Part shown: positions 11,616 to 39,618 of the stretch, one piece after another
Numbering within the stretch: the stretch's first letter is position 1
Layout of the letters: every line of letters starts with the position of its first letter
Source of the DNA: the human T2T-CHM13v2.0 reference genome, Homo sapiens
Reading direction: 5' to 3' (one strand)
Length of the DNA: 64,000 nucleotides
Assembly (NCBI RefSeq): GCF_009914755.1
Contig: NC_060938.1
The notes under the pieces: model-generated
The model's database searches: none
Seen by the model: the letters and a program-made list of their open reading frames with translations, nothing else
Told to the model about the DNA's origin: nothing
Translations under genes and position numbers: made by a program

Positions 11616-11929
11616 ATACATATGGAAAACTCTTTCTCCTCAATTCTGTGGGTCAAGAGATGTCCCGTTGCAAGACGTCCATTCGGCGTGGTCAGCCCAA
11701 TCCTGTCTATAAGGAGACCTTTGTTTTCCAGGTGGCCCTCTTTCAGCTGTCTGATGTCACGTTGATGATTTCCGTTTATAACAGGCGTACTATGAAGCGT
11801 AAAGAGATGATTGGCTGGATTGCCCTGGGCCAGAACAGCAGTGGAGAGGAGGAACAAGATCACTGGGAGGAGATGAAGGAAACCAAAGGCCAGCAGATCT
11901 GCAGATGGCACACTTTGCTGGAATCCTAG
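11616..11929 (+). CDS. SYT16: Synaptotagmin-16, last coding exon (C-terminal part of the C2B domain)
   Basis: Polypyrimidine acceptor ttttttttttgtcttag|AT. Translation (D)[103 protein letters not shown] has synaptotagmin C2B hallmarks (NPxYxExFxF, terminal WHxL) of the SYT14/16 type. Confidence 0.93.
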
Positions 11930-14900
11930 GTTTGCTAACCTGCATTTGTGTGCTGTGTCCACCTTGGTTACCTGTGTTGCTGTCTACTGACACTAAGTGT
12001 CCTGGCAAGGGTTTCAGGGTTTCAAAAACAGATTCCACTAACCCCTAGGACATTGTGAGTGGGAGTTTTGGGTTTCTCAATGGTCTGATTTGGATTTAAA
12101 TATTGTAATTTTAAAAACACACATACACAGTGAAGTGTCCGTATGGAAAATATTATACCACAATTAAGACCACTGATGAGTTAATTTGTGCCAATAGATC
12201 ATTGAGTTTTAGTTCAGGGTATGGGGTGAAGCTTCTTCTGCTGTCTCTGTTTGCTTGAAGAGTAACCTGAGATTGCAAGGGAGCTGTTAATTGTTACTAT
12301 TTGCAACCATTTAGGTGGATGAATCAGAATTTTCTTAATATGGTACAAAAAACTCCAAAATATAGATATGAATCAGATGCTGAGCCTCATAAAAGAATCA
12401 AACTCTAATCCATAAACTCTTATTTCACATTTTTCTCTTTATCAAAGAAACCTATTTACCTAACGAGTAAATATTATAAACTTGCACTTTTAAAATAAAT
12501 TTGTATTAATTAAATACCTCTTTTATCTTATATTTTGTGGTTTCTATGAGATTTGGTTAGATGAATCATTTTGAAGCAAGAAAAGAGTTCAGAAACTACT
12601 GTTTTAAGACAACTTGTCTCCTTTTGAATATGTAAGATTTCAAACTTGTGACTTTCAAGGTTTTTATGCTGTCTTTCTCACCCAATAAGTTCTTAGAGAA
12701 TAAGAAAACAAAAAACAAGACTACTGCAGTCATAGATTTATTGATTTTTTCTGCTTCTGGTGTTCTTTTGGATTATCCTTTTTCTATGTTCAATTATATA
12801 TACTCATATATGAATATTTTGAATGTACTGCATGTAAACCATGCTCTTTTTAAACTGAGTATTTTCCATCACTAGAGCATAGTAAATTGTACACAGTGAG
12901 TCCTTAATAAATATTGATTTGATTGACTCTTCAAAGTGAACATGTTATAACACCTGTGAATGGAGAAATATTTTCAGCTTGTGTGGAATGACATTAAGTT
13001 TTTCTTTGAGCATTTGAAGTGCCTATAACTGTCATTTTTTTATGGCATTTGCAGCAACATATATTAGTCACTACTTGCAATCTGGGCATGTGCCATTCAG
13101 AATACTGATCTTGTATGGTTATGAGCATGGGATTTTACTTATGACTTAATTTTACATATTTATGCAGTGCATGTTTACTTTCCTTATTCATAGGTCTGGG
13201 CCCTTAATTTCAATTACTTTAAATTGGCATTAATAAAAAAATAGGGAAAGAATGTATGTACATTTAATCCCTGCGCTCAATGTGCAGCTCTTCTGAGCAA
13301 TTGCTCAGTCACCTATTTTTAGTTTCTATGTTTCATTGTGGACTTTTTCCTGTCTGTGGGAAGAGTGATAGCTAGTGATGGCTGTATACAGTTAAAAACA
13401 CATAACTCCTCCTCAGCTCCACGTTTTGACAGATTGTAAGCGTAGGCTGTAACACTTGAAGAACATATTTATTCCTTACAGTGTGTAATGGTTATCCTGA
13501 CAAGACCAGACTAGGGCACAGGATAACTCTACTATGCTTTCAGGGTTCAGTCTTTGAATGAAATGATTTCATATGGAAGAATGAGAATTTGCCAAATAAA
13601 TTAATACCTTAATTACTTTTCAGGTCATGGGAGTTTCATATATATGGCTGCTCAGTTATTAGGAATATGTAATAAAACCATGTTCCTCTGGGTTTTTACC
13701 CTACCTTTCTTTGGGAGATCTCAGAGTGCTTTTCCAGCATTATATCCATTAACTGCTGAGTGGTCTTTGCAGCGTGGCTAAGTCATTGAGTAGAACTGAG
13801 TGCGATTGATTAAGTAGCAGCACAAAGAAGTGGCTTTTCACATCTCTTACTCTTTATGCCTTGTGTTTAAAGGGAAGTAGAACAGCCTCGCTATGCTTTC
13901 CTTTATGCAGTAACATAATAGCAGCATTCATTTTAAAATTTACATTTGAAAAAAATCTGTATATATTGTACAGACAGCCCTGAATTTTTCCCTCTCATAT
14001 TTTCCTGCTGCTGCATCCTTGTTTCTTGGTACCCAATAATCACCTATACTTCATTTTCTGTTCCCAAGACCCACCCATTTTTAAGGTTTTCGGCTAGTGT
14101 AGTGAAGATATTTGTGTGCTTGATCTGCCTTCCAATGGTCTGTTTATGATACAGTTTACAGGAATGCGCACCATTTTAAGGGAAGGAATGCCTGAAAACA
14201 TTTTTTATTTTTATAATTTTACTATGTTGGTGCTACTCACCAAATAGGATGCATGTACATCTTGAATATACAGCAACATTCACCCTCAGCTGATTGTATA
14301 CATTTAAGTGCTGAAGACAAGATATATAACAATATGTGGCTGATTTTTTTTACCTTTATTTGAAATTCTAGTTTAGTAAGATCTTTTGATTTTGTGCACT
14401 TAAACTCCCTTATTTTCTTGGCAAAGTCTAGACACAAATGCATTTAACATGTTTTTCACTTGAGCTTTTACATTTGGTTTTCAAAAGAGTTATGAAAGAT
14501 AATTAGTTGGTTCTGCAGTAAAAAACTGCTTTTGCCTATTTCTTCCAGCTAATGATTAATATCTCATAGGGAGATTTGACATTGAAGCAGCACTGGTTTT
14601 TGTTGCTTGAGTAGGTCTTTCAGCGATTTTGCCTGAAGAGCATGCTTTTAAAATAATATCGTTAAGAGTAAATGATGCGCTGGGTTTATGGAAATCTGCT
14701 TTATAGTGTGCCTTCTTTTAGGGTGTGAGTTTACACTGAATTGAGAAATCCTGATTTCACCAATTACGGTGGTGGCTGTTGTACTCTCTACTCCCCTCTG
14801 ACTATTGTTGAATTTTTAAATGGACCATTCACCAGGCAGCCGAACACCTGCTCTCCGTTCCCTCTCCTTCACTGGCTCCCAGTGTGATGCACAGTTGTTT

Positions 14901-15914
14901 TGGACTCTGTTTTTGCTGATGCTGCATAACTGTTGGAGGTGGGGGTGTCTTGCCTTCCCTAACATAAGAAGAATTTGTAATGTCTTTGGATGTGGCATTC
15001 CACCTGCATGAAATCAGGAAAAGAATCATCACCATGTTTGTGAGAGGGAAAAGAGTATGGCATTGCATAGTCATTCGCTTTAGGCACTATTAATTCTGAC
15101 ATCCTTCATTGAAAATTAACTGACATCAAATGTCAATATTCTCCATAGTCCTAGGTGCCAGTGAGCCTGAAACACAGCTTCTGCCTTTTCAATGTGTAGA
15201 TTTCATGATATTTTACAAATTATTGTTACCTCTTGTGCAGTTACTGTGCTTTAGATGACCTTATCTGAGAACCAAAATTCTTTTCTTTCCAGATGAAGTA
15301 CTATTTAAGTAGAAACTAGCATTAGGTTAAATCAAAGTGCTTCTCTGATAGCCACCAATTTGATTTAATTGATGATTCGGTGTGGACACCACTGTGGGTT
15401 TCCAAAAAAACTGGTTATCCTTTTGCAGCAGAGGACTTAGTATTTTAAAAACAGAAAAGTAAGTAGGAAAGTATTATTTGTAAATGTCATAAAACCAGAT
15501 GGAGGCATATTCTTTACTGATAAAGAAACAGGACTAGAACACGCATGTGGTATCTCCTTTTACTTTTGAGGAAACTGTGGTTAAAGAACATTCTATTCTA
15601 TTTGATCTAAGAGCAAAGCAAATGATGGATAATCCTGAAATGGTAAAAGTATTTTTGTCTTAAAAATTATTCATTTGGGCAAAGTCATTTACAACAAAAT
15701 AAAAAGTCATACAGCACACCTATGGAAGAATTAAAGAATACATAAATGTGCTGGATACATTTAGCATCCTCCAGTGAGTTGTATGTAAGGAGAGTAAACT
15801 AATAAACCAAAATACATATCAGATCAACTAGCTATCACTTTTCTAAAACTTGTAGAATTCTGAAAAATATTTAAAGATGGGAGAAACGAAACTGTGCTAA
15901 GACAATGAGATTGG

Positions 15915-16135
15915 CATAGCACAGTGAAGTTGGCACAAACTGTGATCCTGGCCTGGGTTTACATGAAACTCTGCTGTGTGGCCTTAAGAAAATTACTTAG
16001 CCAGCCTGTATCCTGGTTTCTTCAACTGGAAAATGGAAATAATACCTACCTCATTAGGTGTCTTAAAAGATATCAGTGAAATCACAGATGTAATGTGCCT
16101 AGCATAGAGCCGGGCATGTAGTTAGCATTCCGTAG
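15915..16135 (+). mobile_element. MIR SINE
   Basis: Core GTGTGGCCTTAAGAAAATTACTTA..TTTCTTCAACTGGAAAATGGAAATAATACCTACCTCA..GTAATGTGCCTAGCATAG. Confidence 0.75.
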
Positions 16136-18351
16136 TTCCTCCTTACAGTCATGCCTGAAAAAGAAAATATTTAAGATGTGTCTTCTTTTTCTAGCAAATG
16201 TTATTATAACACTAGAGAAAAACAAAAACCAACGTTCAGATACTGTAACAAGGATAGGCTCATGAAGCCAGGCTGGATTCGTAAATAAAGGAGGCTTCAT
16301 CAGGACAGCCTAATCAGAGATAAGCCTGGTATGTGGAGGAAATTGAGCCTTAATAGAGTCCAACTGTGGTAGAACCAAGTCTTTGCATTTATCCCCTTAG
16401 TTTGGAGGGAGTACAAATCCTTGATGGTTTGTGTGTACCTCTTGATCGATCACAAACAAGGCCTCTCCTTGTCTCCAGTTCTCTTATTCATAAATGGACA
16501 AGGCATCTTGTCGCCTTTATCAAAAGAGTTGGTGACAATGGCAGTTTGACTACATATTTCAACTGTGATCCAAAAAAGTAAAATAAATGATGTGATACTA
16601 TACTGAGACTGTTTTAAAAATGGATAACACTTTCTTTAAAACCTGCATTATATATCCATTTTATATCCTGATAGCCAAACATTTTAAAATACTCTAATAA
16701 CACAGCTCTCAAAACGTATCTGTTTGACTGGAATGTCCTGCTCAGAACAAATTATCACTGTTTCCCTTATGAGATCCTAATGAAAGAAATTCAGTTGATA
16801 CTACTTTTTAAAATGGGTTTTAAGAGTGGCTTGTTGATATAATAGCGCATCCACTTGTTCTCAAGTGATTCAAACCTTGAGTAAAAAGGAGAGTTTCTGG
16901 AGAATTTAGAAGAATCTTTGTTGACATTTAATCTAGAGAAGTCTTCAGGAGCAAACCACTTCAAGTTCAGTGTAACCAGGTGCCATGAGTCAGTCATGTG
17001 CTACTTGTGGTTTTAAACGAAACATGATTCTGGGATGAGAAGTGCGAGGCTACACTCCTAATATAATCAAATTGCCAAAGCACTGTTTTGAGTCCTCGGT
17101 ATCCCAATTAAGGAGAAACATGAAGACATTGGAGAATCACTTAGCTTAGGGCTTTTAGTAGGGAATAATTAAACATGTAGGGAAGGTGAAGGAGTTAGAT
17201 GGGAGGTAAGAAGGCTGAGGAGATTTCTAGTAACAATGATCCAAAAGTTCTAACCAGGGGGATGGTGCACACTTTCTCTTCTTGACCACATGGATAGATT
17301 TCAGAGCATCCCTCTAAATCAAGTCTGGAGAATTATGTGAAGGTTGTTTCTCATTAATTCAAAATGTATTCATTGTCTAGTACTATGCTATCTGGGCTGG
17401 CACAGAACTTAAAATCTCTTTGGAGTGCTATGAGTGCACATTGAAGCAGTTGGTCATCATTATACAATGATGCTTACCAATATACAACTGTTAAGTTAGT
17501 CTAACTATGTGCCATAAACAGTAGAGTTCCTTGTTACTAGTATTGGAAGGTGAAACATTGGCTGAATTTATTGGGGCAAGTGTCTAGGAAGCCTTGGACT
17601 GGCAGTGAGTCTTGGTTGCATTATATGGGAAATTGGTGGGGATGGGGGTGTCATAGAATCATCATCTTTGGAAGTTTTTTAAAATAGAAAAATGTACTTG
17701 AAGTCTTGGTTCTGCTAAAGAAGAATGAGAGGACACCCATGAATATACCCTTTATAAAGTTCCTTCTAATATTTAGGTGTAACGTTAAAAAAGAATCAAC
17801 AATAACACTCCAGGCCTGTCTTCTTCCACTTTGGACATTTTTTCCACATTGATTTTTCTCTGCATCATAGAAAGTTTTCTCTGAAGAGTTCCTATTTGGG
17901 TTTTGTTTAGGGCTTTGGGGATGCCTGCAGGCTCAGGGGGAGTTTCCTCTCCTATGGTGCTTTGACTGTTTTTGTTTCCCTTGGGTCACAAAACCATATC
18001 CTAGACACACAGACAATAATCACCTTATTTATATCCACTGTGGAACCTGTGAAACAGCTCGAGGCTTTACAGAACAAGCTCATAGGCAGTCATGGAGATC
18101 TGAGGCCTTTCTTGGAATGAAGCCGCTAACTTGCTAACTGCTTTCCATTGCTCACTAATGCTGCCTTAAGGTTTCTTCATGGGAATTTTTACTTCATGCC
18201 TTTGAGTGACAGTGTTACCAGTTTTACCTTGAGGATGATGAGAAGGCTGACTTCCTATTGTATTGCCATATTTATGCATTATTTTTGTTTACGTCATTTC
18301 CCCCTTGAAGTATCTAGTTGCTGGGGTTTTGTTTGTTTTATACAAAATTTA

Positions 18352-18670
<319 letters not shown>

Positions 18671-20094
18671 AGACCTTTTTAAGTGTAAATGTTCCAGACT
18701 CAGGGTTAGGGGTTGGAGAATGGCAGATGGATAAAATAGTTTAAGTTCAACAATATTTTTTTGTTGTTTCTAAATATTCTTTTTAAAAACTAGAGTCTGA
18801 TAAGAAATCTAGGTAAATAATAAGATCTTTTATTAACCTTGAATTTTTGGCTTAATGTATTTCTGTAATTGTCTCTTTCCCCCTTTGAAAGGCAGAAGAT
18901 TTAGGGAAGGTGAAAGTTATTACCCTGTATCTAATTAAGAAATAGGTACACTTGTTTGTCAGTCTATGCTTTCATTCAAAATAAATGGATATGTTTTGTA
19001 TCTGGGGGAGGAAATGCATCATTCCATTCCAGCAGTGAAAAGAATTATAGCATCAAATAGGATATTTAGTATTCTTGACTTTTATAATTAAATACTGAAT
19101 GCCCTTTGCAAGACAGTAAGTTAGATCCTGGAATGCTAGGTCTGTACAAACTTGACACATTTCTTACAAGCTCTGTGTTTTAATAGTCAAAGGCATTGCT
19201 ACCCTTTGCTTTTTGAAAGAGTGAACTGGTAACAGTAGCCGCCAGAGAAAGAGGTGACAATCTAAACAAAGAGCCCTGCTTACCTTTCTGTGACTAAAAC
19301 TAGTCTTAAAAACTGAATACATTTGGGGCATCCTTATGAAATAGGTAAAGGTCAACATTGGGAGTGTCCCTACCTTGGCAGATAGACCAATACTTTTTTC
19401 CTAGACTCAACCCATTTTTAAAGCAGGAGTTTTTCCAATGGATTTATTGTTTATAATTCTACTAAACATGTCTTAGTCCACGCAAATTAACTCAAAATCT
19501 TTGGTGGCCTGAAAATTCTGACTGAAAGCAAGTTTTTCGTGTTGCCCAGTTGATAGTCCATAATAAAAAATGTACATATCTTGTTTACAAAAGACCTTGA
19601 TGTTTGAGAAGAAATATCGGAAGTCTGCCAGTAAAAACTCTGATTAAGTGAGGAACATGTACATTAAAAGATATTTTCATGTAAGTTATTTTAAGATAGT
19701 TGCATTCTAGGACCATGTTTCTTTTTTGAGAGTGTTTCTTTGTCAAGTTCCTTATAGCCAATGCCTTGACCAAAGCTTACTAATTTTGCCACATTTCCTT
19801 GTGGGTTATGATAATCTTTATTAATTCACAACTCTACCAAATTATAATACAGTCTTTTATTATGCCACCATATGAATGCAGCTGCAAATTCAATTTTGTG
19901 AAATACAAAGTCCTTTCCAGAATTTTAAAACTTAATTTCAGTATAGATTTTAAGTTTGTGAATAAGAAATTAGTATTTGTATACCTTATTATGACAGAGG
20001 TTTCTGTTACAATATTTTCTCTTATAGTGTTGGGATAGGATTTGACCTGTATTTTCAGGTTAAAGCTGGTCTTTGAGATCTACTTTTTAAGAAA

Positions 20095-20620
20095 TTAATA
20101 AATTTTATTTTTTAGAGTTTTAGGTTCACAGCAAAATTGATCCTAAAATATAGAGTTCTCATATACTCCAAACACAACCTTCTTCCCCGTGAACATTTTG
20201 AACACCACAGTGCTATATTTGTTACAACTGATGAACCTTCATTGACATAACATTATCACCCAAAGTGCATAGTTCATATTAAGGTTCACTCTTGGTGTTG
20301 TGTATTTTATGGGTTTTGACCAATGCACAATGACGTGTGTCCACTATTGTAGTATCATACAGAAGATTTTCACTGCCCTAAAAATCCTCTGTGCTCTGCC
20401 TATTCATTCCTCCCTCCCACCTAAGCCCTGGCATCCACTGGTCCTTGTACTGTCCCCAGAGTTTTGCCTTTTCCAGAATGTCATACAGTATGTAGCCTTT
20501 TCAGATTGGCTTTTTTTTTTTTTTCACTTAGGGATAGTCATGTAAGTTTTCATGTCTTTTTATGGCTTGATAGTTCATTTATTTTAAGTGCTGAATAATA
20601 TTTCATTGGTTGTATCACCA
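20095..20620 (-). mobile_element. L1M-class 3' end fragment
   Basis: TTTTAGGTTCACAGCAAAATTGA..CATTATCACCCAAAG..TCACTCTTGGTGTTG matches antisense old L1 3' UTR. Confidence 0.75.
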
Positions 20621-26504: not shown

Positions 26505-26910
26505 GCGTTCTTGGTTACCTTTGATGTACCAGGCACTGTGTGCTAGACAGTTGGGACACAGTGTTAACCAGGTGAACTAGCTTAAAATCTGGTGTAATGA
26601 ATATTGTGAAATAGGATTGGTAGGGTGAATTGGGAACATAATTAGGGGGCTAATGTAGTCGGTGGGAGGCTGTCAGGGGAAGCTGCTATGAGGAAGTGGT
26701 ATTTAAGCTGAGACGTGAAAGCTGAGTAGGAGTAAGCCAGGTAAAAGGGAGGCACATTAAGAAAGAAGAAACAGCATGTACAAAATACCTTAGGCAAGTG
26801 AGACCCTTCCCTATTCAAGGAAACTGAAAAAAGTCCAGCGTGACTGGACCTTAAAGAGCAAGGAGGAGAGTGTTTTGAGATGAGCTGGACAAGAAGACAA
26901 GGCTCATTGA
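26505..26910 (-). mobile_element. L2 fragment
   Basis: ATGTACCAGGCACTGTG..GTCAGGGGAAGCTGCTATGAGGAAGTGGTATTTAAGCTGAGACGTGAA is typical antisense L2. Confidence 0.65.
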
Positions 26911-27822: not shown

Positions 27823-27859
<37 letters not shown>

Positions 27860-27999
27860 CTGAGGCCCCCTGCCAGTAGGCAGCCACAGACAACGCCAAA
27901 AGGAATTAGACTCTGGGCTGATTTTTATGGATTAGTTAACATATCCCTCCTCAGAATCTATCAAGTGCTCAAACCTGCAGACACAAACACGAACACACT

Positions 28000-28920
28000 A
28001 GGGAGGAGAGTCCCAGAAGGCGGAAGATCCCGTACTGCTCATCCCCAAACGCCTCACCCCGGGTCACACCCACGAACTCATCCGGTTCTCCCTTCTCAGG
28101 GTCCTACTCCAAGGCGAAGAGTATCCCAGAGGAAGGGTCAGGGTCTTAAAAAAAAAAAAAAAAAAAAACACTGAGCCAAACCCCGCTGCTTCCTCAGCCG
28201 CTGAAAGTGCCGCCCCACCCCTCTCCCCAAACCCGACCTCCGTAGGGGACACCGAGCCAAGGCCTGCAGCGAGTGACCTGCCCGGGGAGGCGCGGGACCG
28301 AGGCTCACCTACCCGGGCCCGCGAGTCTCGCCCAGCCCCAGCCTCCCAACCCACTCTGCCGGCCCCAACTTAGGCGAGCGCAGTCGGGACCCTTCTGTCG
28401 GGGCTCTTTGTTCGCCGCCCCTCGGCGTTCCAGCTCTCAACCTTGCTCCCAGCAGCCCCCGCCGGCGCACTCGACCTACAGGAAAGTTGCTCCCGAGCTG
28501 TGGAGGGGCGTCATCGCCTCCTAGCAACGCTCCTAGCAACCGGGTAACATCTGCTCCCTGTGGTCCAATGCGAGCTGAGAACAGCTGCGCGCCCGCCTAG
28601 CGCTGCGAACCCGGAGTGAGAGGCGCTTCAGAGACTGGAGGGACGGACCTGCAGGAGCCAGGGCTGCCCGCCGAGCTGCAGTTGCCGCTACTGCCGCTGT
28701 CAGCGCCCGACTGAAGAGTGACAGCCGCAAAAGCAGGAGTGAGCACCGAACCCCGCGCTTCTACCTAACAGGTGCATGCGCCGATCTGGTGAGTGGACCC
28801 AGCTCACAAGGTATGTCTGGATTCATCCAGCCAGGTGCCTTCCTCCGAGCTCAGAAGGGACTCCTTTCCTTGAGGGGGAGGATAGGGACGTGTTCCGGGA
28901 TCCCACCCCGCCCCCAACCA
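28000..28920 (+). promoter_or_regulatory. CpG-island promoter and first exon of the downstream + strand transcript
   Basis: The only GC/CpG-rich segment in the window. It has a CCAAT box (28565-28569), tandem CCTAGCAAC RFX half-sites (28520-28540), and donors TCTG|GTGAGT (28788/28789) and CAAG|GTATGT (28810/28811). Confidence 0.85.
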
Positions 28921-29912: not shown

Positions 29913-30036
29913 ATCTCAGGTAACCATTCATGAGCCTGAGGCTGTGAGAAATGCTCGCTGTGCAAAGGGGAACTCTCACCAGATTTTCTGAAGCTGTTCT
30001 AGAAATACACTTTTCGGATTGATTCAGCATTACCAG
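29913..30036 (+). other. Candidate internal exon (possibly the decayed first coding exon of the SERTAD4-like gene)
   Basis: Acceptor tgtctgtctccttgtttcaag| and donor CCAG|GTAATT; all three frames contain stops. Confidence 0.45.
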
Positions 30037-32552
30037 GTAATTGCTAGCTTAAAAGAAATTACTGTTTAAATATGTATCCAGAGAAATGAATGCTAATGTA
30101 ACATTACCATAACTTATAAGATCAATATAAGGGGTTGTTTATATAGATGGTTGCTGGGTAGAAGTCAATAGAGGTTTTCTGTAAAAAGGACATTTGTGGG
30201 CTGGCTGATTTTCCTCTCTAAGATCCGTGTGAATAGGGTGGGCCAAATTAGGTAGCCTGGCTCCGGAAACATGCCAAGCGGAAGCCTACTGAGCACACGA
30301 GTGCATGTCCGAATGAAGGAAGTGAGGAGAACTCTCCAAGTTGCAGAAAGAGATTATTGTGATGTTTCAAATTTAATTTGCATAAGGTCATGAGGATAGA
30401 AACTTATGAGGCTTCAACATTTTAAACTCAATTTTCAAGACTGAATACGTCTTAAACGAGTGTTCAACCCTCCAGCATTTGTAACTTTCACATGTACTGT
30501 GCCCTTCCTATAGGTAACCAGCCTAGCAAATTGCAATCAAATTTATAAGAATATACCATGCTGCATTTCATCCCATTTCTTTCCTCCCTTTATAAAAATA
30601 AATAATTGACAATTTTTATTCAGAAACCTATTTGAAAATTTATTCTGGTCTAGTGGTACAGATTTATGAATACCGTGAGACTTTAAGATTATTGATCTCT
30701 ATAGTCACTTGTTTAAATATCTGTAGTTTAATAATTTTAAGGATTAAAGATTAGCATTTGAACTGTCAAAAATGTTGGTTTTGTTGGCCCTTAGCACCAT
30801 CCATCCTTCTTCATTTATCATACTGACTGTATTTTATGGTGAGAAACAACCCAAAGAGACCAATAATATTTACCGTCATCTGCCATGAGATGTGTACAGA
30901 GTTCCATTCATGCTATCAATCTGAGGAAAGTTTGAGCAAAGCAGCCACAATTATTGGTTCATGTAGGTGAATTAGTTGTGTGATTAGTAATTTATACCAC
31001 AGCCTGTCTCTTATGTCATGTGCATAAAAGTTGAAGATCATTCAGTGCCCTTTAATTTACGTGAATCAGTCTGCCCTTTCGTTGAGACTGCTGCCACAAT
31101 CCAAAAGGGCAATGAAAGAGGTTCTTAAATTTTAATTTTGATTCTATCATAAATGTGTAATATGCAGACTATATCCTGTGCAACTTTGATAAACGGATCT
31201 GTTTGAAAAGTCATTCATCAGAAAATTTTATGGTATTTAGCTTCAAAAAATAAAAATAAATCAAATGGTATCATTATAATATCCACATTTAATCCTGGAG
31301 ACATTGGTGGGTCCAAAGTTAGAGTGTGGAAGAAAATTCCACCAATTTTTATTTAAGGATCTAGTCACCCTCATCAATTTGAACACCAGCTGCACTTGTA
31401 TATGTAATGGGTTATAAAGAAGGCATGCACTTAGGAGTATAAGATTTGGCTAAAGCTGAGATCAAGCAGGTTAAAACTAAACCAAATTCTAATTTCAGTC
31501 TTTTTTACTCATATACTCTATTTGGAAGTTTTTAGGCATGTGTGAAAATTCTATGTTCAATTTTATGTCATGTAAACTTCATGGAATTTAGAAGACGCCT
31601 TGATGCAGACAGAGATGTTGAAAACTTTTATCAAGAGGTTGAGGCCCTTACCTCCATACCTGGGCTCTCTACTGATGACTCATGTCAGCTGGCATCCCAA
31701 CAATAACTCTAAAGCCAAGGAATAATCAGTTCAGATTGCTCTATTTGTCAAAGCAATATGCCTCAGAAACCTAGAAAAAGCTAAACTGCTAACTCTGAAG
31801 CAGAGGTAGGAGTACATTGACCAAAACCATTCAGCACTAAAACGAAGGAAGGATACCTTTGAGTTTTGGGAGAGGCCAATCCTTGTCGATTCTTTTTTCC
31901 TTTTTCTTTTTAAGTTGTTTATCTAAATAGTGTTAATACATTAATGTTTACCCTTTGTAATCTAACACCATTTTTTATATTTTCTTTTTTCCTAATTAAA
32001 TTTATACAAATGGGCTAATTAACAGAGCCATCCAATTCACTGCAATAATTCTCAGCTGGGGGGAAGGGGTGGCGGAAGGATATTACTGAAAAGCACTAAG
32101 AGCTAACCAATGTTGTCCTCAATATTGTAATATAGCCTTATGTTTAGAAAACAAAAGAACGACAGAAAGTGAAGTGCAGCAAAAAGGCTTCTTGGTAGAA
32201 ACACAAGAAACACAAGATCTGAACATCAGTGGTGCTTAGAAGGACAGGAGGTACACGTTTGAGGCTGGGAAGTCTACTCTGCGTGTGTATTTCAGAGTAC
32301 ATATTGTTTTCAAAGTGCTTAGGAAAAGGGAGCATGAGTAAGGAACATGAAGAAAAGTTGGGAATATTGTAAAGAGAGACAAGACTCAAGAGCCTAGAAC
32401 CTCAATTCTGCCTCCATGTGCTGCTCATTTTACTGCTTTATGGCTCATTTTCTCTCTATCTAATGTGGGATATAAGACTACAAGCTTAAGTAGATTGCTT
32501 GAGCATGAATGTAACACAATTTAATGAAGCAACTGTAGCTCTGTAAGAAAAA

Positions 32553-32900
32553 CTTTTATGTTCACGGGTACCTGTGCAGGACTGTTACACGGGTGAATTG
32601 TATGCCACTGGGTTTGGTCTACAGATTATTTCACCACCCCCATAATAAGTGTAGTACCTGAGAGGTAGTTTTTGTATCCTCACCCTCCTCCCTCAAATAG
32701 GCCCCTGTGTCTGTTCTTTGCGTTCATGTGTACTCAGTGTAGCTCCCACTTATAGATGAGAAGATGCAGTATTTGGTTTTCTGTTCATGTGTTAGTTCTC
32801 TTAGGATAATGGCTTCCAGCTCCGTCTATGTTGATGCAAAGGACATGATTTCATTCTTTTTTTATGGCTGTGTAGTATGGCTGTGTGCTATTCCATGGAA
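32553..32900 (-). mobile_element. Older primate L1 3' end
   Basis: GGGTACCTGTGCAGG..GCTCCCACTTATAGATGAGAAGATGCAGTATTTGGTTTTCTGTTC..GCAAAGGACATGATTTCATTCTTTTTTTATGGCTG. Confidence 0.85.
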
Positions 32901-34194
32901 GCACCTATATAGCTCTTTAGCGAAAAGGTACCCTGTGAATGAAAATTATTTCACCACTAGAGCAACTCCAGGTGAAACACAAATCAGATACCATATGAGT
33001 GAGGGCAGAGAGTCACCCAACTCCACGCGAATCCTCATGTGTTTTAAAGTGAGTAAAATTAATGATTAATTCAATCTTATGTTTTTTTACAACCCTTTTG
33101 GGATAGCAGAAGCAACGTTGGCGTGGATAGATGTTTTTGTTAATATACTCAAGCATGGAGTGGTGGTGGTAGTGATATCAAAGTGGAAGACAATGTGAGT
33201 GATATAGATCAGGTACTTTTAGAAAGGCTGCTATTATCCATAGGTTAGGGATTAAAACTCTTTTCTTTGAGTACCAGTCCTGGGTATCGAGGGAAGTTGT
33301 AGTATCTCTCTAGCATATCTCTAGGTATGGATTTCTTGGAACCCATATACTGCAATGTGCTTCCAAAAAAGCAATTTTCTTTCTAATTCATTTCTACTTT
33401 CCAAGGTAAAAGATGGGGTAAAAGGAAGCATCATTCCTCAGAATCAGGAATGCACTTCTAGGGGGTGGAAAATCAAAAAGTTTACCCAAGAAGCCTCCTG
33501 CACTTCGCCTCTAAATTTCTGTCATTAGCAGGGCCAGATCACGGCAGCAACTGGCTTTAGTGCAGCATCTAAGGAAACCTAATGGTGTTCTGTTTGGTTC
33601 AGAGACCATTACCATTGGAGCAGGATAGGCTTGTGGAACTGGTGGGGTTTTCTTTACTATTCCATGCCTGTGCTTGGGGTTATCCCAAGGGACATGGATG
33701 CAATCTAGTACCAGACAATGCTGCTGGTATCTTGAGAAACTCTTCTAAGTCATTGGCTCTCAGTATTCCTGGAAGTTCCTAAGAAAGTCTGCTCGAGCTG
33801 GAACTTGTTAGTAATTCTAAATTGCCAGTAAAGTCAATATTGTGCTTGGGGTGGATAAATCTGAAGAAACAGATTGCTCCATTGATTTGGAGATAAAACC
33901 TGACACTGAGCTCTGCTACCATAAAGGATATTATCCAGAAAGGTGATAGGCAAGGGGGTTATGAGAGAGAAGAAAGATGGCTGATGGAAAATTGTTAAAC
34001 ATCAACAGAGCCAAAGGTCTCCAGAAGGCACAGCATCATAGCCTTGAACTTTGCACCCATCTACCTTCTTGAATACACTCATGAATGCTTCATGCAGCCC
34101 ATGCTTAGCACTAAAGAGAGGACCAATGTCCTAGGTATAATATAATGCTGCTGAGCAGGATATGTACTTATGATTTCAAAATGAAGTCACTGCA

Positions 34195-34415
34195 ATAATA
34201 ATACGTAACATTTACTGAGCAGGAAATATGAGCACATGTGACAGGCACTGAGTAACTGCTTTTTAAACATCATCTCTTCTAATTCCAGTAAAACTCAATG
34301 AGTTTGGTATTGTCCCCCCGTTTAACAGATAAAGAAAAGTTAGGCTCTTTGAGTTTAAATATCTTGGCCAAAGTCAGTAAGCAAATAAACTGTAGAGCTG
34401 GTATTTGAACTAGTG
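34195..34415 (-). mobile_element. MIR SINE
   Basis: ACATTTACTGAGC..TTTAACAGATAAAGAAA..CTTGGCCAAAGTCA..GAGCTGGTATTTGAAC. Confidence 0.7.
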
Positions 34416-35874
34416 CCGTTGGACAGAACTAGAAGGTTATGCTGAAGTATTTCAAGCCATGCAGTGAGACTGCAGAATGTGGTTAGCAGGGACAGATGGG
34501 GTAACTCTTTCTAATCAACTGTGGTCATGGCCCTTAAGGAAATATCTCCAGTAGCTTTGTCACCAGCAAATCATTATTTAGCTAGATAGGGACAATTGCA
34601 CTTTTAAAGGCTCATGCCAGGCTAACATGTTACAAAGAAAAATCAGTAAGACATTGTGAAGCTGAGGTGCCTGATTTATCTTTAACACAAGTCAGTTGTT
34701 GATCTGAGATGGAACCCACCTTCTTTCTTGTCATTGATCAGCCTCCACCCCTTCTGTCTGTGGGTAGGATGCACACATCTAATAGGATGGTTTCAACTCT
34801 GTTTTTGGAATGTTTTGATTTAAATGTTGTGGGGGGAAAAATGAAAGCCAAACTAAAATTAGGATATATTGAACTGATCACTTCTTCACCATGTCTCCAG
34901 CTTTGAGTCTTGACAAAGAATGGATTGCTTTGACAGGAGTTGTTCTTTTTACTGTGGTCTGTTATCTCAAAGTGTTTGTAAATTAATTTGCTGATGATGT
35001 TTCCTTAATGTACTGTCTCCAGACCATGTACCAAATGAAATCACTTACACCGTAATAGGATTTCAGTTTTCTGGAGGCAGAAGCAGAGCAATGAGGAAGA
35101 GCATTTGAGCAATCATTTGTAATTACATTTTAAACATTTATTTAAAGAATTATATAAAAATTATATTGCTAGAACTCTAATGACAGGGATGGTCACTCTG
35201 TTCTGTAACTTTTAATTTGTTGGTTATTTATGTTTTATACTACCAAATACACTGAGCTTGGCACAGATATTTTATGGGCCCAGAGGATATAGCATTAGAA
35301 ACAGCTTGAATATTCAAGCCATCATTAGCCATTTCACTTTCAGAGACAAATTTAGGCTCAGCCTAATTCAGTTTTGTAATTTACATACTGTTCTCAGAGC
35401 TCAGAACACTCAGAATGTGAAGACATAAAGTCATTTCATTTTTTTTCTTGTCTATTTCGTCATCTTTATTTGAATAATAGGCTGGGTTAAGTTTGGCCTT
35501 TTAGTTGCAGGAGAACTATAACAGATTTACACATGTTTACTGAATCATAACAACCAAACTTCTTTGGATAGTCAGATCAACTTTAATTAATTATCCAGAT
35601 GATTACCTGTATGTTTCAAAAATAGTTTACACCTCCTTCACCCAAAATGCATGACCAGTGGCAATACACCAGAAATATTTGGAGTTGTTATAGAATCTGT
35701 ACTACGTTTTTTCAACTTGATCATTTGCAATATCTTCTTGCAGTTTTTTTTAACTGTCTAATTACAATCTAGTATCTTTGGGAGGCAGGGTGGTGGAGTC
35801 TTTGAGTCAGAGCTAGGAGGCCAGGCTGGGCTCTGCTTCTATGTGGTAGATTTGTGACTAATGGCACAAATAAG

Positions 35875-36095
35875 GTCTACAATTTGATTGAGTGTTTACT
35901 ATATGCTAGGCACAGTGCCAGTCACTTTCCATGAATTATTTCAATGATCTTATGAGCCAGTGTTATTTCTATCCTTACTTTACAAATGAGATTTCTAGAG
36001 AGTTTATGTAATTTGCTCAAAGTCACTCAAATAAGAAGCAGCAGAGCTGGAATTCAGACCACTTCCATCTGACTTCAAAACCCAAACTCATAGCC
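35875..36095 (-). mobile_element. MIR SINE
   Basis: ATTGAGTGTTTACTATATGCTAGGCAC..TTTACAAATGAG..TTTGCTCAAAGTCAC..GCAGAGCTGGAATTCAGACC. Confidence 0.75.
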
Positions 36096-37181
36096 ACGTG
36101 CCAGAATGTAAATTATTGAACTCGTCTGGGCTGTAGTTTTCTCATCTGGACACTGAGGAGGCTGAATCAGGTGATGGATACATAGTTATCAGCTCCGAAT
36201 GTTTTGAGTTCTAATCCAGCCAAGCAAACAGATGTAGGAACTTATGTTTGCTATATATTTTAACCTAAAAGTGGCTAGAACCATCCTCCAAAATTGATAC
36301 TGAAAACATTTTAAATAGCTAAACAGCTTTCAGGGAGATAATTGTCAAACTGATACCAGCTGTGAAGGCTTTTCAGCATTTTAACAACCCATGTGGGTAT
36401 TTTTTAAGAGCAATAAACTAAATGGCTAAGTGTGTTGCCCACGGAGGAGCTGAGACTCAAATCTAGAACTCCTGGGAATTTTCTCTGTATTTTCAGGATC
36501 TGATACATTCAGTATATTAGGCTAATTGGTTGATGATAGCCAGACAGTCTTTATGAACCTTGGAATCATTTGATATGATTTTTTTGGTCTTGATCTGTCA
36601 AATAAAAATATCTTTCCTGGAGGTACACTTGGGATCCAGAACTATAAGTTTATTTGTCATTTGGTTCTCTAATCTGCCACCTGCCTTCCCTTGTATTACT
36701 CATTAAAAGATTCTTAATTGGTCATAAATGCTGTAGATATTGCATTACATTGGAAGATAAAATGAGCAGACATTTTAAAAAGATACATATAAGAAAGTCA
36801 TGTTTGCTCATGATGAAGTTACTCATCTCATTTTCTAGCCTTTTCTCACTGTCACCTACACTATAGTAATTCATTAGAGCTTGTTAAAAAAATTAGAGAC
36901 CTGCCCAGCTATCATGCTAATAATAGCCATTGATGCTTCTCAATGTGAACCCAGGAAAAGTGACTTCATTCTTCACTATTTAGTTAAAATGCAGTCTGGC
37001 TTTGTTCATGAGGCTAAAGCATCTAAGCCAGTGTAGGGAAGCAATAGCAACAACAACAACAATCAATCAAACCAATTGCCTGGCATTCTATTGATATGGC
37101 AATCAGCTGATTGACTGAATGTTCTGCTCTTAACTTGTTGCCATAGTGCTACTACTACACCTGCTGAATGCTGCAACCTAG

Positions 37182-37365
37182 AGGCTCTCAAAATGCAATC
37201 CCCAGACTGGCAGCATCAGCATCACCTGGAAATTTGTTAGAAATGCAAATTCACTGCTGCTAGCCCAGATCTACTGGATTAGAAACTCTGGGGGTGGGAC
37301 CCAGCAATTTGATTTAACATACCCTCCAGATAATTCTGATGCTCACTAACATTTGAAAACTACCA
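37182..37365. mobile_element. MER5A-like hAT-Charlie DNA transposon
   Basis: GCAGCATCAGCATCACCTGGAAATTTGTTAGAAATGCAAATTC..GAAACTCTGGGGGTGGGACCCAGCAAT..ATTCTGATGC. Confidence 0.85.
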
Positions 37366-39017
37366 TTACATCAATTAGTGAAACAGTTTAAAAAAAAAGT
37401 ACAAGTAATTGTCACACGGGATAACCCAAAGCTTCACCTAATTATTTGATTAAATCCTTAAAAAATATACCAAAGAAAATGCAGTTTACTAAAAAACAGC
37501 CCCTGAGAAACCTGGTTTCAGTGATGCTTTCTTTGTTCTCTCTACAATCAGCTTTGTTCTTCTTTCCTAAACTTTTGAAATCATTGAAAACTCTATATAA
37601 GCTGAGTTTGCTTACTGAATTCAGGGACTGTGTAGGTATAGTAGTAGCAACTATTGTCTTTGCTTCAGTTCACTTGTGAATTATCATGACATATTCATTT
37701 CTTTTAAGATCAGATACACCACTGTTTTAAAATTCTTCATTCCCTTAACAAAACATAACAACTATAACTTAAGGCTTTCTTGGGTTAATAATCCACAGTG
37801 ATGTCAGTGGAAAACTGGAATGCTTGGGAATGATTTTGTAGCTTTTCTTACTGACTGAGGAAAATCATTTAGCTACAAAAAGTTGCGGGAAGCTTTTGTA
37901 GCTTAGATGCACTGAGTTGGAGGACAAACTAGAAAAAGCAAATTCTTGAACACATTTAAAATATTTAAGCTTAGAAAAATTTAAGATTTTAGAGGAAAAC
38001 CATCAAATGTCTTGCTGTAGATTTATTTAACTAACACATACATTATTCATTCTTTTGTGAACTAAATGGTTTCAACACATAGAAATATTTGAGGATGTGT
38101 ATTAAGGGTAAAATAAATTATGTTTAAATATGAAGTTTCTTTCTGGCCTGGTCCCCCGAGGTTGAATGAGAATTGAACTGGACTCAATTTGTTTTCTAAA
38201 TTCATTCAGTGCTTTCTCTAGAAGCTGCTTGTCTTTAGCTTTGAAAGTAGATCTTGCCTCCTTTTTGTGATATGAGTGCCACCTAGAGTACACTCTGAGA
38301 ACTCCCTTAAGCACTATCGTTAAACTAAACGATAACTGAAAATTGGCTTTTGGAACTCCGTCCTTCCTTAAGCAAGTAAGAACCTCAGTAGCAATCGTAT
38401 TTTAAAGGAGAAAACAAAGGTCTTCACTTTCAGTATTATGACAAGGTCAAGTTTGCAAGTCAGAACGTTACCTAAATCTTTCATTTACTTAGAACACCAT
38501 TAAACCATGTGTTAGGACGATGGCTACACCATAATCATATCATAGAGTGTTTTGTCTACAGATACACCATTATTTCTTTAAAGTGTAATTGGGCTGCCAA
38601 CTATTTTATGCCAATTTGATTAACCTAGTGACACTAAATGATCTCTCTGTATTAGGCAGTTTAACTAAAAGAATGATGAAAAATTTCTTTTCTCCTCCCA
38701 TTACATTCCATTTCAAATTTGGGTGTGTTTTGACATTAAATGGCATGAAATAAAATAGTATATTGGTATTTGACTTCTGAGGGGCTGCATAAGGAAATAA
38801 ACATGAGTATCCTATCTAGAACATCTGTTTTGGGTCTGAATGGTGGTATTTTCCTGCCTGCAGGCTTTTCAATCCAGGGCAGTTGTCACTGCTTCACCAC
38901 GTTGAAGGGAGAATACCAATTTCCAGGATCACCAGTTTATTTTTATAGATAAAAGTTATATTATAAGATACTATTTGCCACAATAAAATCTAACCTTTCC
39001 CCAATTATTTTGTTTAG

Positions 39018-39133
39018 CTTATCCAACAAAAGTATTAACATATACATTAACAACGTCGAAAGTAGCCTACTTTAAGAGAAAATATGCAGAAGAAGAAGAT
39101 TTACATCAAGATTACCATGGGTATTTTCCAAAA
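39018..39133 (+). CDS. SERTAD4-like coding (or formerly coding) exon, 116 nt, phase 1 to phase 0
   Basis: ttattttgtttag|CT TAT CCA...TTT CCA AAA|gtaagg. Open frame xYPTKVLTYTLTTSKVAYFKRKYAEEEDLHQDYHGYFPK aligns without gaps to the recalled SERTAD4 segment [39 protein letters not shown]. Confidence 0.8.
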
Positions 39134-39243
39134 GTAAGGGTTTACTTATTATTATTTGTTCATTTTCATGAATGTTGTCAACATAAAAAGCTGTAGTTTT
39201 TGTTTTTCTAAATATAGATTTAATGATCATGTTTGCTTTCCAG

Positions 39244-39618
39244 CACCTGATATTACCTGAGGACAGAACTTGCATTCTCAAACTTTCTCTGGAGAAGCTC
39301 AGGTTTCTTGAAGACCCAGAAACCTACTTAAGAAGGTCTGTGTTAATTAACAATTTGCTGAGGAAGATACATCTAGAGACGGAGAAAGAGAGCTATGAAT
39401 ACTTTAAAGAAGCTCCCTGTTATAAGACTGCATATTCTGATACAAGAAAACGGCTGAAGTTTATGGTACAGGAATGCTGTTCTCAGTCTCTCTATTATGA
39501 AGAGCTGCATTCGTATCATATTGTGCCTTATGCTTCGGAGAATGCCATTTATGAAATGGGCTACACTAGCAGCCACTTGGAGCAAAATTCTCAGTTGCTT
39601 ATTTATAAAATGAATTAA
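39244..39618 (+). CDS. SERTAD4-like terminal exon encoding a SERTA domain (124 codons plus stop)
   Basis: Acceptor gtttgctttccag|CAC in phase 0. [38 protein letters not shown] carries the SERTA signature (SLxKL...LRRSVLIxN) and matches recalled SERTAD4 [38 protein letters not shown] at 26/38 positions. Confidence 0.85.

What the first reader, a model, noticed from the sequence alone, without database searches (positions are those of the whole stretch)
11616..39618. Gene order suggests an ohnologue: SYT16 plus SERTAD4-like mirrors SYT14 plus SERTAD4
Seen: the SERTA exons lie on the same strand directly downstream of SYT16, behind their own CpG island. Known (recalled): SERTAD4 lies directly downstream of SYT14, the closest paralogue of SYT16, on 1q32 with KCNH1 nearby, while SYT16 neighbours KCNH5 on 14q23. 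Inference: both blocks come from one ancient duplication, likely vertebrate whole-genome duplication. The high amino-acid identity then implies long purifying selection, so any loss of coding function must be comparatively recent.
Basis: partly seen in the sequence, partly recalled or inferred. Interest (0 to 1): 0.85.

Follow-up and report, generated by a model that had tools for sequence, protein, structure and literature searches.

The report
SERTAD4BP: ancient duplicate of SERTAD4
The transcribed "pseudogene" just downstream of SYT16 is the human copy of an old vertebrate sister gene of SERTAD4, sitting in a duplicated gene block, and its main reading frame is still almost untouched although it has no normal start codon.

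Summary
SYT16(+), SERTAD4BP(+) and KCNH5(-) on chr14 mirror SYT14(+), SERTAD4(+), [HHAT] and KCNH1(-) on chr1. SERTAD4BP has its own CpG island and a real SERTA motif.

The ohnologue reading is supported.
- Intron positions and phases match SERTAD4, including a 116-nt exon 3 in both.
- Trees split SERTAD4 from "SERTAD4B" at 100/100. Each side holds sharks, ray-finned fishes, coelacanth and tetrapods.
- Nesting the human sequence inside mammalian SERTAD4 is rejected (p-AU 4.5e-7).
- 17 of 37 consecutive chr1 genes have a same-family partner on chr14.

Two things were not testable here: the position of SERTAD4B in non-mammalian genomes, and the pre-duplication state in cyclostomes or invertebrates.

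The paralogy is already implied by the official name, so novelty is low.

The twist concerns coding status. The 163 codons of exons 3-4 are open and differ by one residue from camel and fur seal. No in-frame ATG exists, and exon 2 carries three stops. Gene models of other mammals also lack a shared start. So the loss of coding is either recent (at most about 13-27 My) or not real. Published work treats the locus as lncRNA LINC00643 with a "conserved exon 3".

The parts
11616..11929 (+). Last coding exon of SYT16 (C2B end). The 3' UTR runs on to 23770.
   Evidence: RefSeq annotation. The peptide 11618-11926 matches SYT14 on chr1 at 84% identity, its best paralogue.
28100..28900 (.). CpG island and promoter of SERTAD4BP.
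   Evidence: GC 63.5%, CpG obs/exp 0.72, 58 CpG. Translations of this DNA appear as spurious N-termini in turtle, beaver, bichir and arapaima gene models.
28518..28540 (+). Exact 11-base motif present twice in tandem, about 40-60 bases upstream of the RefSeq start site.
   Evidence: 2 matches in the window; 0 of 100 shuffles gave 2. Sequence read.
28579..28810 (+). Exon 1 (non-coding leader). One frame is open over the whole exon and is in phase with exon 3 if exon 2 is skipped.
   Evidence: The fur seal model N-terminus aligns here (28568-28702, 93%), with a TAG in human at codon 11 of that frame.
29913..30036 (+). Exon 2. The frame that joins exon 3 carries three stops (TGA 29931-29933, TGA 29937-29939, TAG 30000-30002). 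The only ATG is out of frame.
   Evidence: The same frame is open in crocodile, alligator and turtle models, which align here at 47-56% identity.
39018..39133 (+). Exon 3, 116 nt, 39 codons (phase 1 in, phase 0 out). It holds the TTSKVAYFKRKY motif. This is the 'conserved exon 3' of the LINC00643 literature.
   Evidence: 39 of 39 residues are identical to the fur seal model and to the matching stretch of the camel model. SERTAD4 exon 3 is also 116 nt with the same phases.
39244..39618 (+). Coding-type part of exon 4: 124 codons plus TAA (39616-39618). The SERTA motif is at about 39274-39378 and the UPF0730 domain at about 39472-39609.
   Evidence: 45 named homologues, from 99% (camel) to 43% (teleost) identity.
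39223..39618 (+). 131-codon ATG-started ORF that begins 21 nt inside intron 3.
   Evidence: The ATG is not kept in the dolphin model P0003. It is probably the UniProt entry 'Putative UPF0730 protein encoded by LINC00643' named in a table of PMC6798591; the link to this ORF is my inference.
39619..45409 (+). Long 3' untranslated-type part of exon 4. Its end overlaps LINC00644 on the other strand.
   Evidence: RefSeq annotation.

Best explanation
SERTAD4BP is the human copy of SERTAD4B, a small SERTA-domain gene that arose together with SERTAD4 when one ancestral block (SYT14/16, SERTAD4/4B, KCNH1/5 and many further genes) was duplicated before the last common ancestor of jawed vertebrates. The duplication was most likely one of the two early vertebrate whole-genome duplications.

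Shown here:
- the same order, strand and exon-intron design in the two human loci;
- a deep split between the two gene lineages, each spanning sharks to mammals;
- a wide set of other paralogue pairs shared by the two human regions.

Inferred: that the block duplication was a whole-genome event, and that SERTAD4B lies beside SYT16 in other vertebrates.

In other vertebrates the gene encodes a protein of roughly 160-220 residues. It has a basic motif in exon 3, a two-helix SERTA hairpin and a short C-terminal UPF0730 segment. By analogy with the SERTAD/TRIP-Br family it is presumably a nuclear co-regulator; that is an inference and was not tested.

In human the locus is still transcribed from its own conserved CpG-island promoter. 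The 163-codon core frame is intact and nearly unchanged. But the annotated transcript offers no in-frame ATG, and exon 2 is closed by three stops. So either the protein was lost very recently or it is made from a start that is not yet recognised.
For: Gene order and strands.

Exon structure. SERTAD4 exon 3 and SERTAD4BP exon 3 are both 116 nt, entered in phase 1 and left in phase 0, and exon 4 starts just before the SERTA motif in both. Retained introns exclude a processed copy.

Paralogy. 33 of 73 residues are identical over the SERTA region (E 5e-18), and it is the only paralogous match in the genome.

Trees.
- 53 rows with four human outgroups: SERTAD4 clade 100/100; the human sequence sits in a 16-row SERTAD4B clade with shark and coelacanth at 99/96.
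- 62 rows without outgroup: SERTAD4 and SERTAD4B split at 100/100, and both sides hold cartilaginous fishes, bichir, teleosts, coelacanth and tetrapods.
- AU tests: SERTAD4B held as one clade is not rejected (p 0.343). Human plus 5 mammalian SERTAD4 held as a clade is rejected (p 4.5e-7).

Profile search. SERTAD4B hits score 139-307 bits and SERTAD4 hits at most 128 bits.

Paralogon. 17 of 37 consecutive coding genes from SYT14 to TGFB2 have a same-stem partner on chr14. In 288 random windows the mean was 2.6 and the maximum 14, and 0 of 288 reached 17.

Literature (passages read). PMC13398235 reports SERTAD4-HHAT-KCNH1-RCOR3-TRAF5 conserved in shark, mouse and human, and SYT16-KCNH5-RHOJ-...-PPP2R5E conserved in shark, gar, mouse and human. 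It places single invertebrate KCNH1/5-like channels outside the KCNH1 and KCNH5 groups.

Constraint. Human differs from camel and fur seal at 1 of 163 residues. The human end branch is 0.0088, against 0.08-0.12 for beaver, elephant and vole.
Against: - With the long outgroup branch, teleost SERTAD4B sequences fall as a grade at the root instead of with the other SERTAD4B. I read this as long-branch attraction, but it is a real feature of that tree.
- The paralogon count rests on gene-name stems, not on sequence, and includes some loose pairs. A first, wider version of the count was not convincing: chr14 ranked sixth by raw pair count, and second after chr12 when scaled by gene number.
- HHAT has no counterpart in the chr14 block, and the SYT-SERTAD spacing differs 13-fold.
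- No vertebrate genome other than the human one could be inspected, so synteny of SERTAD4B outside human is unverified. PMC13398235 does not mention a SERTA gene beside SYT16.
- No cyclostome or invertebrate pro-orthologue was seen among the 120 listed of 339 hits, so the upper age bound is open.
Confidence: 0.85

Rival explanations
1. The human locus (and its mammalian orthologues) is not a pseudogene but a still-translated SERTAD4B gene whose start has not been recognised. The start could be a non-AUG codon, an unannotated 5' exon, or an exon-2-skipping isoform. This concerns coding status only and is compatible with the ohnologue origin.
For: - The 163-codon frame is open and differs from camel and fur seal at one residue.
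- The human end branch is shorter than that of species where the gene is annotated as coding.
- Gene models of other mammals have no common N-terminus. They start in the leader exon (fur seal, beaver), inside the end of intron 2 (camel, koala, dolphin) or in other exons (vole, woodrat). This suggests that the missing canonical start is not peculiar to human.
- PMC7555810 reports no mouse or rat orthologue for LINC00643, only a rabbit one, and the glioblastoma preprint speaks of a mouse homologue of the lncRNA (passages). Yet the vole model is 94% identical to human over exon 4.
- An exon-2-skipped transcript would be open for 240 codons from its first base.
- One proteomics table lists the UniProt entry for this locus once (PMC6798591).
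Against: - There is no in-frame ATG upstream of the SERTA motif in the RefSeq transcript, and there are three stops in exon 2 where reptile models are open.
- RefSeq labels it a transcribed pseudogene.
- The preprint reports a mainly nuclear RNA.
- Promoter and leader DNA are also strongly conserved, so DNA- or RNA-level constraint could mimic protein conservation in mammals.
- I could not measure synonymous divergence.
- A single proteomics listing is weak.
Confidence: 0.3
2. The two blocks come from a regional (segmental) duplication before jawed vertebrates diverged, not from a whole-genome duplication.
For: The three focal pairs (SYT14/16, SERTAD4/4B, KCNH1/5) each have only two members. 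That needs only one duplication event.
Against: The shared paralogue pairs spread over about 8.5 Mb of chr1 and from 56 to 98 Mb of chr14. That scale is typical of the early vertebrate paralogons. PMC13398235 attributes the increase in vertebrate KCNH gene number to whole-genome duplications.
Confidence: 0.08
3. SERTAD4BP is a young copy of SERTAD4 (a mammalian duplication or a retrocopy) that landed by chance next to SYT16.
For: None beyond the shared SERTA motif.
Against: - It has introns at the parental positions.
- Orthologues exist from shark to birds.
- The AU test rejects a clade with mammalian SERTAD4 (p 4.5e-7).
- Identity to SERTAD4 is only 45%.
Confidence: 0.01

Closest known systems
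SERTAD4 (human chr1q32; SERTA domain containing 4)
   Same: SERTA motif (Pfam PF06031). Basic motif in a 116-nt exon 3. Identical intron phases. Same position and strand relative to a SYT14/16-type gene and a KCNH1/5-type gene.
   Different: Only 45% identity over 73 residues. SERTAD4 has an N-terminus conserved from shark to human and a long serine-rich C-terminal half (356 aa). SERTAD4B has no conserved N-terminus, ends about 100 residues after the SERTA motif, and carries the UPF0730 segment instead.
SERTAD4B / 'SERTA domain-containing protein 4-like' / UPF0730 proteins of other vertebrates (Pfam PF15827)
   Same: Orthologous. Identity over the 124 exon-4 codons is 99% (camel), 96% (koala), 93% (crocodile), 85-91% (birds), 81% (frogs), 64% (basking shark) and 61% (coelacanth). 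Same two Pfam domains.
   Different: The human transcript has no in-frame ATG and has three stops in exon 2. Human has Glu at a C-terminal position where 0 of 45 aligned orthologues have Glu and 28 have Gly.
SERTAD1/2/3 and CDCA4 (TRIP-Br/SEI family of co-regulators)
   Same: SERTA motif. They were used as outgroups. The family is described as regulating cell-cycle progression through CDK/cyclin complexes (PMC12259730, passages).
   Different: They are separated from SERTAD4 plus SERTAD4B by a 100/100 branch. They are encoded by a single open frame in the loci fetched. Whether SERTAD4B shares their biochemical activities was not tested.
lncRNA LINC00643 as described in bioRxiv 10.1101/2025.09.16.676559
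   Same: The same locus and the same four exons. Their 'highly conserved exon 3, the functional part' is the 116-nt exon at 39018-39133 (passages).
   Different: The preprint treats the RNA as non-coding. In the main text searched there are 0 occurrences of SERTAD4, pseudogene or open reading frame. Here the conservation of that exon is explained by its origin as a coding exon of SERTAD4B.

Membership tests
SERTA-domain proteins (Pfam PF06031) | Match to the SERTA motif profile above the curated cut-off | tested here: met
   52.3 bits against a cut-off of 25, residues 11-45 of the exon-4 frame.
UPF0730 family (Pfam PF15827) | Match to the UPF0730 profile above the curated cut-off | tested here: met
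   88.2 bits against a cut-off of 25, full profile 1-47. SERTAD4 does not match it.
Ohnologue pair (paralogues from the early vertebrate genome duplications) | The two genes are each other's closest paralogues | tested here: met
   SERTAD4 is the only significant second match in the human genome. The two form sister groups against SERTAD1/2/3/CDCA4 at 100/100.
Ohnologue pair (paralogues from the early vertebrate genome duplications) | The duplication is older than the split of cartilaginous and bony vertebrates | tested here: met
   Both lineages contain sharks, ray-finned fishes, coelacanth and tetrapods.
Ohnologue pair (paralogues from the early vertebrate genome duplications) | The duplication is younger than the split from invertebrate chordates (a single pro-orthologue outside vertebrates) | not tested
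   No cyclostome or invertebrate SERTAD4-type protein was seen among the 120 listed of 339 hits. The Atlas lists only generic SERTA clusters in cnidarians and arthropods (a lead only).
Ohnologue pair (paralogues from the early vertebrate genome duplications) | Both genes lie in paralogous chromosome blocks with many other duplicated pairs | tested here: met
   Flanking pairs SYT14/SYT16 (84% identity) and KCNH1/KCNH5 lie in the same order and orientation. 17 of 37 chr1 genes have chr14 partners by name stem, and 0 of 288 random windows reached 17.
Ohnologue pair (paralogues from the early vertebrate genome duplications) | The block arrangement is conserved in distant vertebrates (SERTAD4B beside SYT16 and KCNH5) | not testable with these tools
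   No non-human vertebrate genomes are on hand. PMC13398235 shows the SYT16-KCNH5 block in shark and gar but does not list a SERTA gene there.
Unitary (non-processed) pseudogene | Retains the exon-intron structure of the ancestral gene at the ancestral locus | tested here: met
   Four exons. Exon 3 length and both phases are the same as in SERTAD4.
Unitary (non-processed) pseudogene | A disabling lesion in human that is absent from species with a working gene | tested here: inconclusive
   There is no in-frame ATG, and there are three stops in exon 2 where crocodile, alligator and turtle models are open. However, models of other mammals avoid exon 2 as well and share no start, and the core frame is intact.
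Processed pseudogene / retrocopy of SERTAD4 | Intronless copy of the parent mRNA | tested here: not met
   Introns of 1.1 kb, 9.0 kb and 110 nt are present, and the last two lie at the parental positions.

The most novel reading that the evidence does not exclude
SERTAD4B is a vertebrate protein-coding gene (sharks to mammals) with no functional study found in the papers searched. In human and other mammals it is still translated from an unrecognised start: a non-AUG codon, an exon-2-skipping isoform that is open from its first base, or an unannotated 5' exon. On this reading 'SERTAD4BP/LINC00643' is a missing human protein-coding gene. The biological effects reported for the 'conserved exon 3' of the lncRNA would then need re-reading in the light of a SERTA-domain protein.
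Probability: 0.3. Interest if true: 0.6.

Novelty: already known. Interest (0 to 1): 0.35.

Why it matters
The ohnologue relation itself is a tidy but expected piece of vertebrate genome history, and the official symbol (SERTA domain containing 4B, pseudogene) already implies it.

What matters more in practice is how the locus is studied. It is treated as a long non-coding RNA (36 papers hold the name LINC00643). One preprint assigns tumour-suppressor activity to its "conserved exon 3". That exon and the next form a 163-codon frame that is 99% identical between human and camel and is recognisable in sharks.

Anyone working on this RNA should know three things. Its conservation is that of a coding gene. 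The human frame is essentially intact. And the basis for calling it dead (no recognised start) may apply to mammals in general.

Tried and rejected
(1) Out-of-frame ATG in exon 2. I suspected it marked the ancestral start because its peptide looked like the SERTAD4 N-terminus. A shuffle test gave p 0.06-0.88 against five SERTAD4 N-termini. Dropped.

(2) Conserved start codon among SERTAD4B models. I looked for one. The methionines of the koala, vole, camel, fur seal, beaver, turtle and alligator models all lie at different places. Several N-termini are translations of the promoter, the leader or intron ends. No start could be named.

(3) Rooting with SERTAD1/2/3/CDCA4 put teleost SERTAD4B as a basal grade. 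I do not read this as history, because SERTAD4 itself contains teleosts and sharks and the AU test allows a single SERTAD4B clade.

(4) The first name-stem count over +-8 Mb was too crude: chr14 had 11 pairs against 27 for chr12. It was replaced by the 37-gene window with random-window control.

(5) No solved structure matches the family profile (0 hits at E up to 1). The AlphaFold model is confident only for the SERTA hairpin (mean pLDDT 63, pTM 0.36), so I ran no fold search.

(6) The Atlas search gave only generic SERTA clusters.

(7) Literature.
- 'SERTAD4BP': 1 paper, a gene list.
- 'SERTAD4B/UPF0730/sertad4l': 2 papers, lists only.
- 'SERTAD4+SYT14+SYT16': 3 papers; only the search listing was seen, and none is an evolutionary study by title.
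- 'SERTAD4 + whole genome duplication': the KCNH study only.
- A family search: no paper with a sixth SERTAD member by title.
- One search was badly framed (any 2 of 5 terms) and says nothing about this locus.

(8) Synonymous against non-synonymous change could not be measured, because no DNA of other vertebrates is available.

Full report
WHAT IS THERE. The window holds the 3' end of SYT16. Its last coding exon is at 11616-11929 and its 3' UTR runs to 23770. The four-exon transcribed pseudogene SERTAD4BP lies 4.5 kb further on, on the same strand. Its exons are 28579-28810, 29913-30036, 39018-39133 and 39244-45409. Exon 1 lies in a CpG island: 28100-28900 has GC 63.5% and CpG obs/exp 0.72, against 0.21 and 0.32 in flanking kilobases. 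The frame 39244-39615 of exon 4 matches Pfam SERTA (52.3 bits, cut-off 25) and Pfam UPF0730 (88.2 bits, cut-off 25).

GENE ORDER. The RefSeq gene table gives these orders.
- chr1: SYT14(+), SERTAD4(+), HHAT(+), KCNH1(-), RCOR3, TRAF5 ... PPP2R5A.
- chr14: SYT16(+), SERTAD4BP(+), KCNH5(-), RHOJ, GPHB5, PPP2R5E.

The three focal genes have the same order and relative orientation. Two things differ. HHAT has no counterpart on chr14. The SYT-SERTAD gap is 61 kb on chr1 against 4.5 kb on chr14. SYT14 is clearly the nearest paralogue of SYT16: the last-exon peptide matches it at 84% identity, SYT14P1 at 72%, and the remaining three matches at 25-32%. The only significant second match of the SERTA frame in the whole genome is SERTAD4 (44% identity, E 2.9e-10). 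The other five of seven matches have E above 1.

GENE STRUCTURE. I fetched the SERTAD4 locus (L001, L002) and located its coding exons. In both genes a non-coding first exon in a CpG-rich region is followed by a small second exon. Next comes a 116-nt third exon, entered in phase 1 and left in phase 0, that encodes the motif TTSK-x-x-YFKRKY. A large last exon begins just before the SERTA motif. A retrocopy is excluded. The pairwise identity of the last-exon frames is 33 of 73 residues (45%, E 5e-18).

ORTHOLOGUES. A search with the 124 exon-4 codons returned 45 named proteins out of 45 scored candidates. A further 52 candidates of unnamed source were left out by the tool. Identities were 99% for camel, 96% for koala, 93% for crocodile, 85-91% for birds, 81% for frogs, 64% for basking shark, 61% for coelacanth and 43-57% for teleosts. 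Most of the hits carry both Pfam domains.

A search with the SERTAD4 last-exon frame returned 99 proteins of SERTAD4 proper, from elephant shark and manta to mammals.

A profile of 17 SERTAD4B sequences found 339 proteins at E up to 0.001 among 954 candidates, of which 120 were listed. SERTAD4B sequences score 139-307 bits and SERTAD4 sequences at most 128 bits. This search added fur seal, beaver, three turtles, two catsharks, bichir, arapaima and pike. No primate protein appears among the listed SERTAD4B hits. That fits their annotation as non-coding, but cluster members cannot be listed here.

TREES. The first tree has 53 rows, four human outgroups taken from L003-L006 and 313 columns. It gives a SERTAD4 clade at 100/100. 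It places the human sequence next to camel inside a 16-row SERTAD4B clade with shark, coelacanth and tetrapods at 99/96. Against my reading, the teleost SERTAD4B rows fall as a grade next to the very long outgroup branch, and the tool itself warns of long branches meeting there. Holding all 25 SERTAD4B rows together costs 1.44 log-likelihood units (p-AU 0.343), so a single clade is not rejected. Holding the human sequence with five mammalian SERTAD4 rows costs 323 units (p-AU 4.5e-7).

The second tree has 62 rows, no outgroup and 186 columns. It splits the two groups at 100/100. Both sides hold cartilaginous fishes, bichir, teleosts, coelacanth and tetrapods. Rows were picked by me from the hit lists to span taxa. 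The many near-identical bird, rodent and frog rows were left out.

THE WIDER BLOCK. Of the 37 consecutive protein-coding genes from SYT14 to TGFB2 on chr1, 17 have a partner with the same name stem on chr14. Examples are KCNH5, PPP2R5E, RCOR1, TRAF3, RD3L, FLVCR2, VASH1, ANGEL1, PROX2, ESRRB, TGFB3, GPATCH2L and PTPN21-type pairs. In 288 random windows of 37 genes the mean was 2.6 and the maximum 14, and none reached 17. The measure is crude because it uses names, not sequences.

PMC13398235 (passages read) reports two conserved blocks. SERTAD4-HHAT-KCNH1-RCOR3-TRAF5 is conserved in shark, mouse and human. PRKCH-HIF1A-SNAPC1-SYT16-KCNH5-RHOJ-...-PPP2R5E-WDR89 is conserved in shark, gar, mouse and human. 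The paper places invertebrate KCNH1/5-like channels outside the KCNH1 and KCNH5 groups. It does not mention a SERTA gene beside SYT16.

That 1q32-q41 and 14q23-q32 belong to one early-vertebrate paralogon is also my recollection of published reconstructions. I did not check this.

CODING STATUS IN HUMAN. In the spliced RefSeq transcript the SERTA frame is open for 174 codons, from a TAG in exon 2 (30000-30002) to the TAA at 39616-39618. It has no in-frame ATG before the SERTA motif. In the same frame exon 2 has two more stops (29931-29933, 29937-29939). Crocodile, alligator and slider-turtle models are open there and align to the human exon at 47-56% identity.

Against this, the 163 codons of exons 3-4 differ from fur seal and camel at one residue. 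Exon 3 is 39 of 39 identical to fur seal. The one difference is a Glu where 28 of 45 aligned orthologues have Gly and none has Glu. The human end branch (0.0088) is shorter than those of beaver, elephant and vole (0.08-0.12).

A simple neutral model was run on these 489 bases. About 72% of random changes would alter the protein. With substitution rates of 0.5 to 1.0e-9 per site per year, which I assumed, one or fewer protein changes stays plausible (P above 0.05) only up to about 13-27 My.

IS IT LOST AT ALL? The N-termini of SERTAD4B models in other mammals share nothing.
- Fur seal and beaver run from the leader exon straight into exon 3.
- Camel, koala and dolphin start inside the end of intron 2.
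- Vole uses a block that aligns to human intron 2 (33854-33940).
- Woodrat and a second camel model splice other exons to exon 4.

Several fish and turtle N-termini are translations of the conserved promoter. So the lack of a recognisable start may hold for mammals in general. It would then sit badly with the near-perfect conservation of the frame. PMC7555810 (passages) lists LINC00643 among human pseudogenes with a coding counterpart in rabbit and no orthology in mouse or rat. It says the counterpart is retained in chimpanzee, bonobo and gibbon but not gorilla.

An exon-2-skipped human transcript would be open for 240 codons from its first base, again without ATG. The 131-codon ATG-started ORF at 39223-39618 starts in intron 3, and its ATG is not kept in the dolphin model.

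I cannot decide between three readings: a protein made from an unrecognised start; RNA- or DNA-level constraint in mammals, where the promoter and leader are also highly conserved; and a very recent loss. The first is my most novel reading, at about 0.3.

WHAT THE PROTEIN WOULD BE. Across 45 aligned orthologues the invariant columns cluster in the exon-3 basic motif and the SERTA motif. Length differences in teleosts appear as inserted acidic runs in the protein alignment. The AlphaFold model of the elephant protein with that alignment is confident only for a helical hairpin over the SERTA region (pLDDT above 90 for about residues 40-80). It is below 50 over the UPF0730 tail, with mean 63 and pTM 0.36. 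No solved structure matches the profile. By analogy with the SERTAD/TRIP-Br family, which is described as acting on cell-cycle progression through CDK/cyclin complexes (PMC12259730, passages), I infer a small nuclear adaptor. This was not tested.

LITERATURE AND NOVELTY. The symbol SERTAD4BP already states that the locus is a dead paralogue "4B" of SERTAD4, and Pfam holds the UPF0730 family. I found no paper that spells out the SYT14-SERTAD4 / SYT16-SERTAD4B mirror or treats SERTAD4B as a gene family. Thirty-six papers use the older name LINC00643. One preprint (10.1101/2025.09.16.676559; passages) reports brain expression, nuclear localisation and a tumour-suppressive effect of the "highly conserved exon 3". 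Its main text does not mention SERTAD4, a pseudogene or an open reading frame.

VERDICT. The finding is correct and well supported, but it is an expected kind of result. The open question worth following up is whether the frame is still translated.

Noticed in passing
window 28518-28540 (and 28505-28645): An exact 11-base motif occurs twice in tandem just upstream of a CCAAT box and the RefSeq start site. Translations of this promoter and leader DNA appear as N-termini of database proteins from turtles (E 6e-9), beaver, bichir (E 0.009) and arapaima (E 0.14), so the core promoter seems conserved far beyond mammals. It resembles RFX X-box half-sites; that is recalled, not tested.
   Followed up: partly
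window 33854-33940 (intron 2 of SERTAD4BP): Thirty codons here are 73% identical to the N-terminus of the bank-vole SERTAD4B model. The human frame is open over 33821-33943, lacks an ATG, and ends at a stop that overlaps a GT. This is either a conserved intronic element or an alternative exon.
   Followed up: partly
window 39223-39618: A 131-codon ORF starts at an ATG 21 nt inside the 110-nt intron 3. It is probably the UniProt entry 'Putative UPF0730 protein encoded by LINC00643', which is listed once in a follicular-fluid proteomics table (PMC6798591).
   Followed up: partly
window 28579-28810 joined to 39018-39618: If exon 2 is skipped, the transcript is open from its very first annotated base to the TAA. 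That is 240 codons with no ATG, and a stop codon sits immediately upstream of the annotated start site.
   Followed up: no
database proteins P0001-P0005, P0144-P0148, P0151, P0152, P0156, P0166: Public gene models of SERTAD4B are inconsistent. N-termini are taken from leader exons, intron ends or promoter DNA. Names range from 'SERTAD4-like' and 'sertad4' to 'KAT6B-like', 'podocalyxin-like' and 'long intergenic non-protein coding RNA 643'.
   Followed up: partly
window 45372-45601 and 62003-62509: LINC00644 overlaps the 3' end of SERTAD4BP tail to tail by 38 bases, and a TUBA1C pseudogene lies further downstream (annotation only).
   Followed up: no
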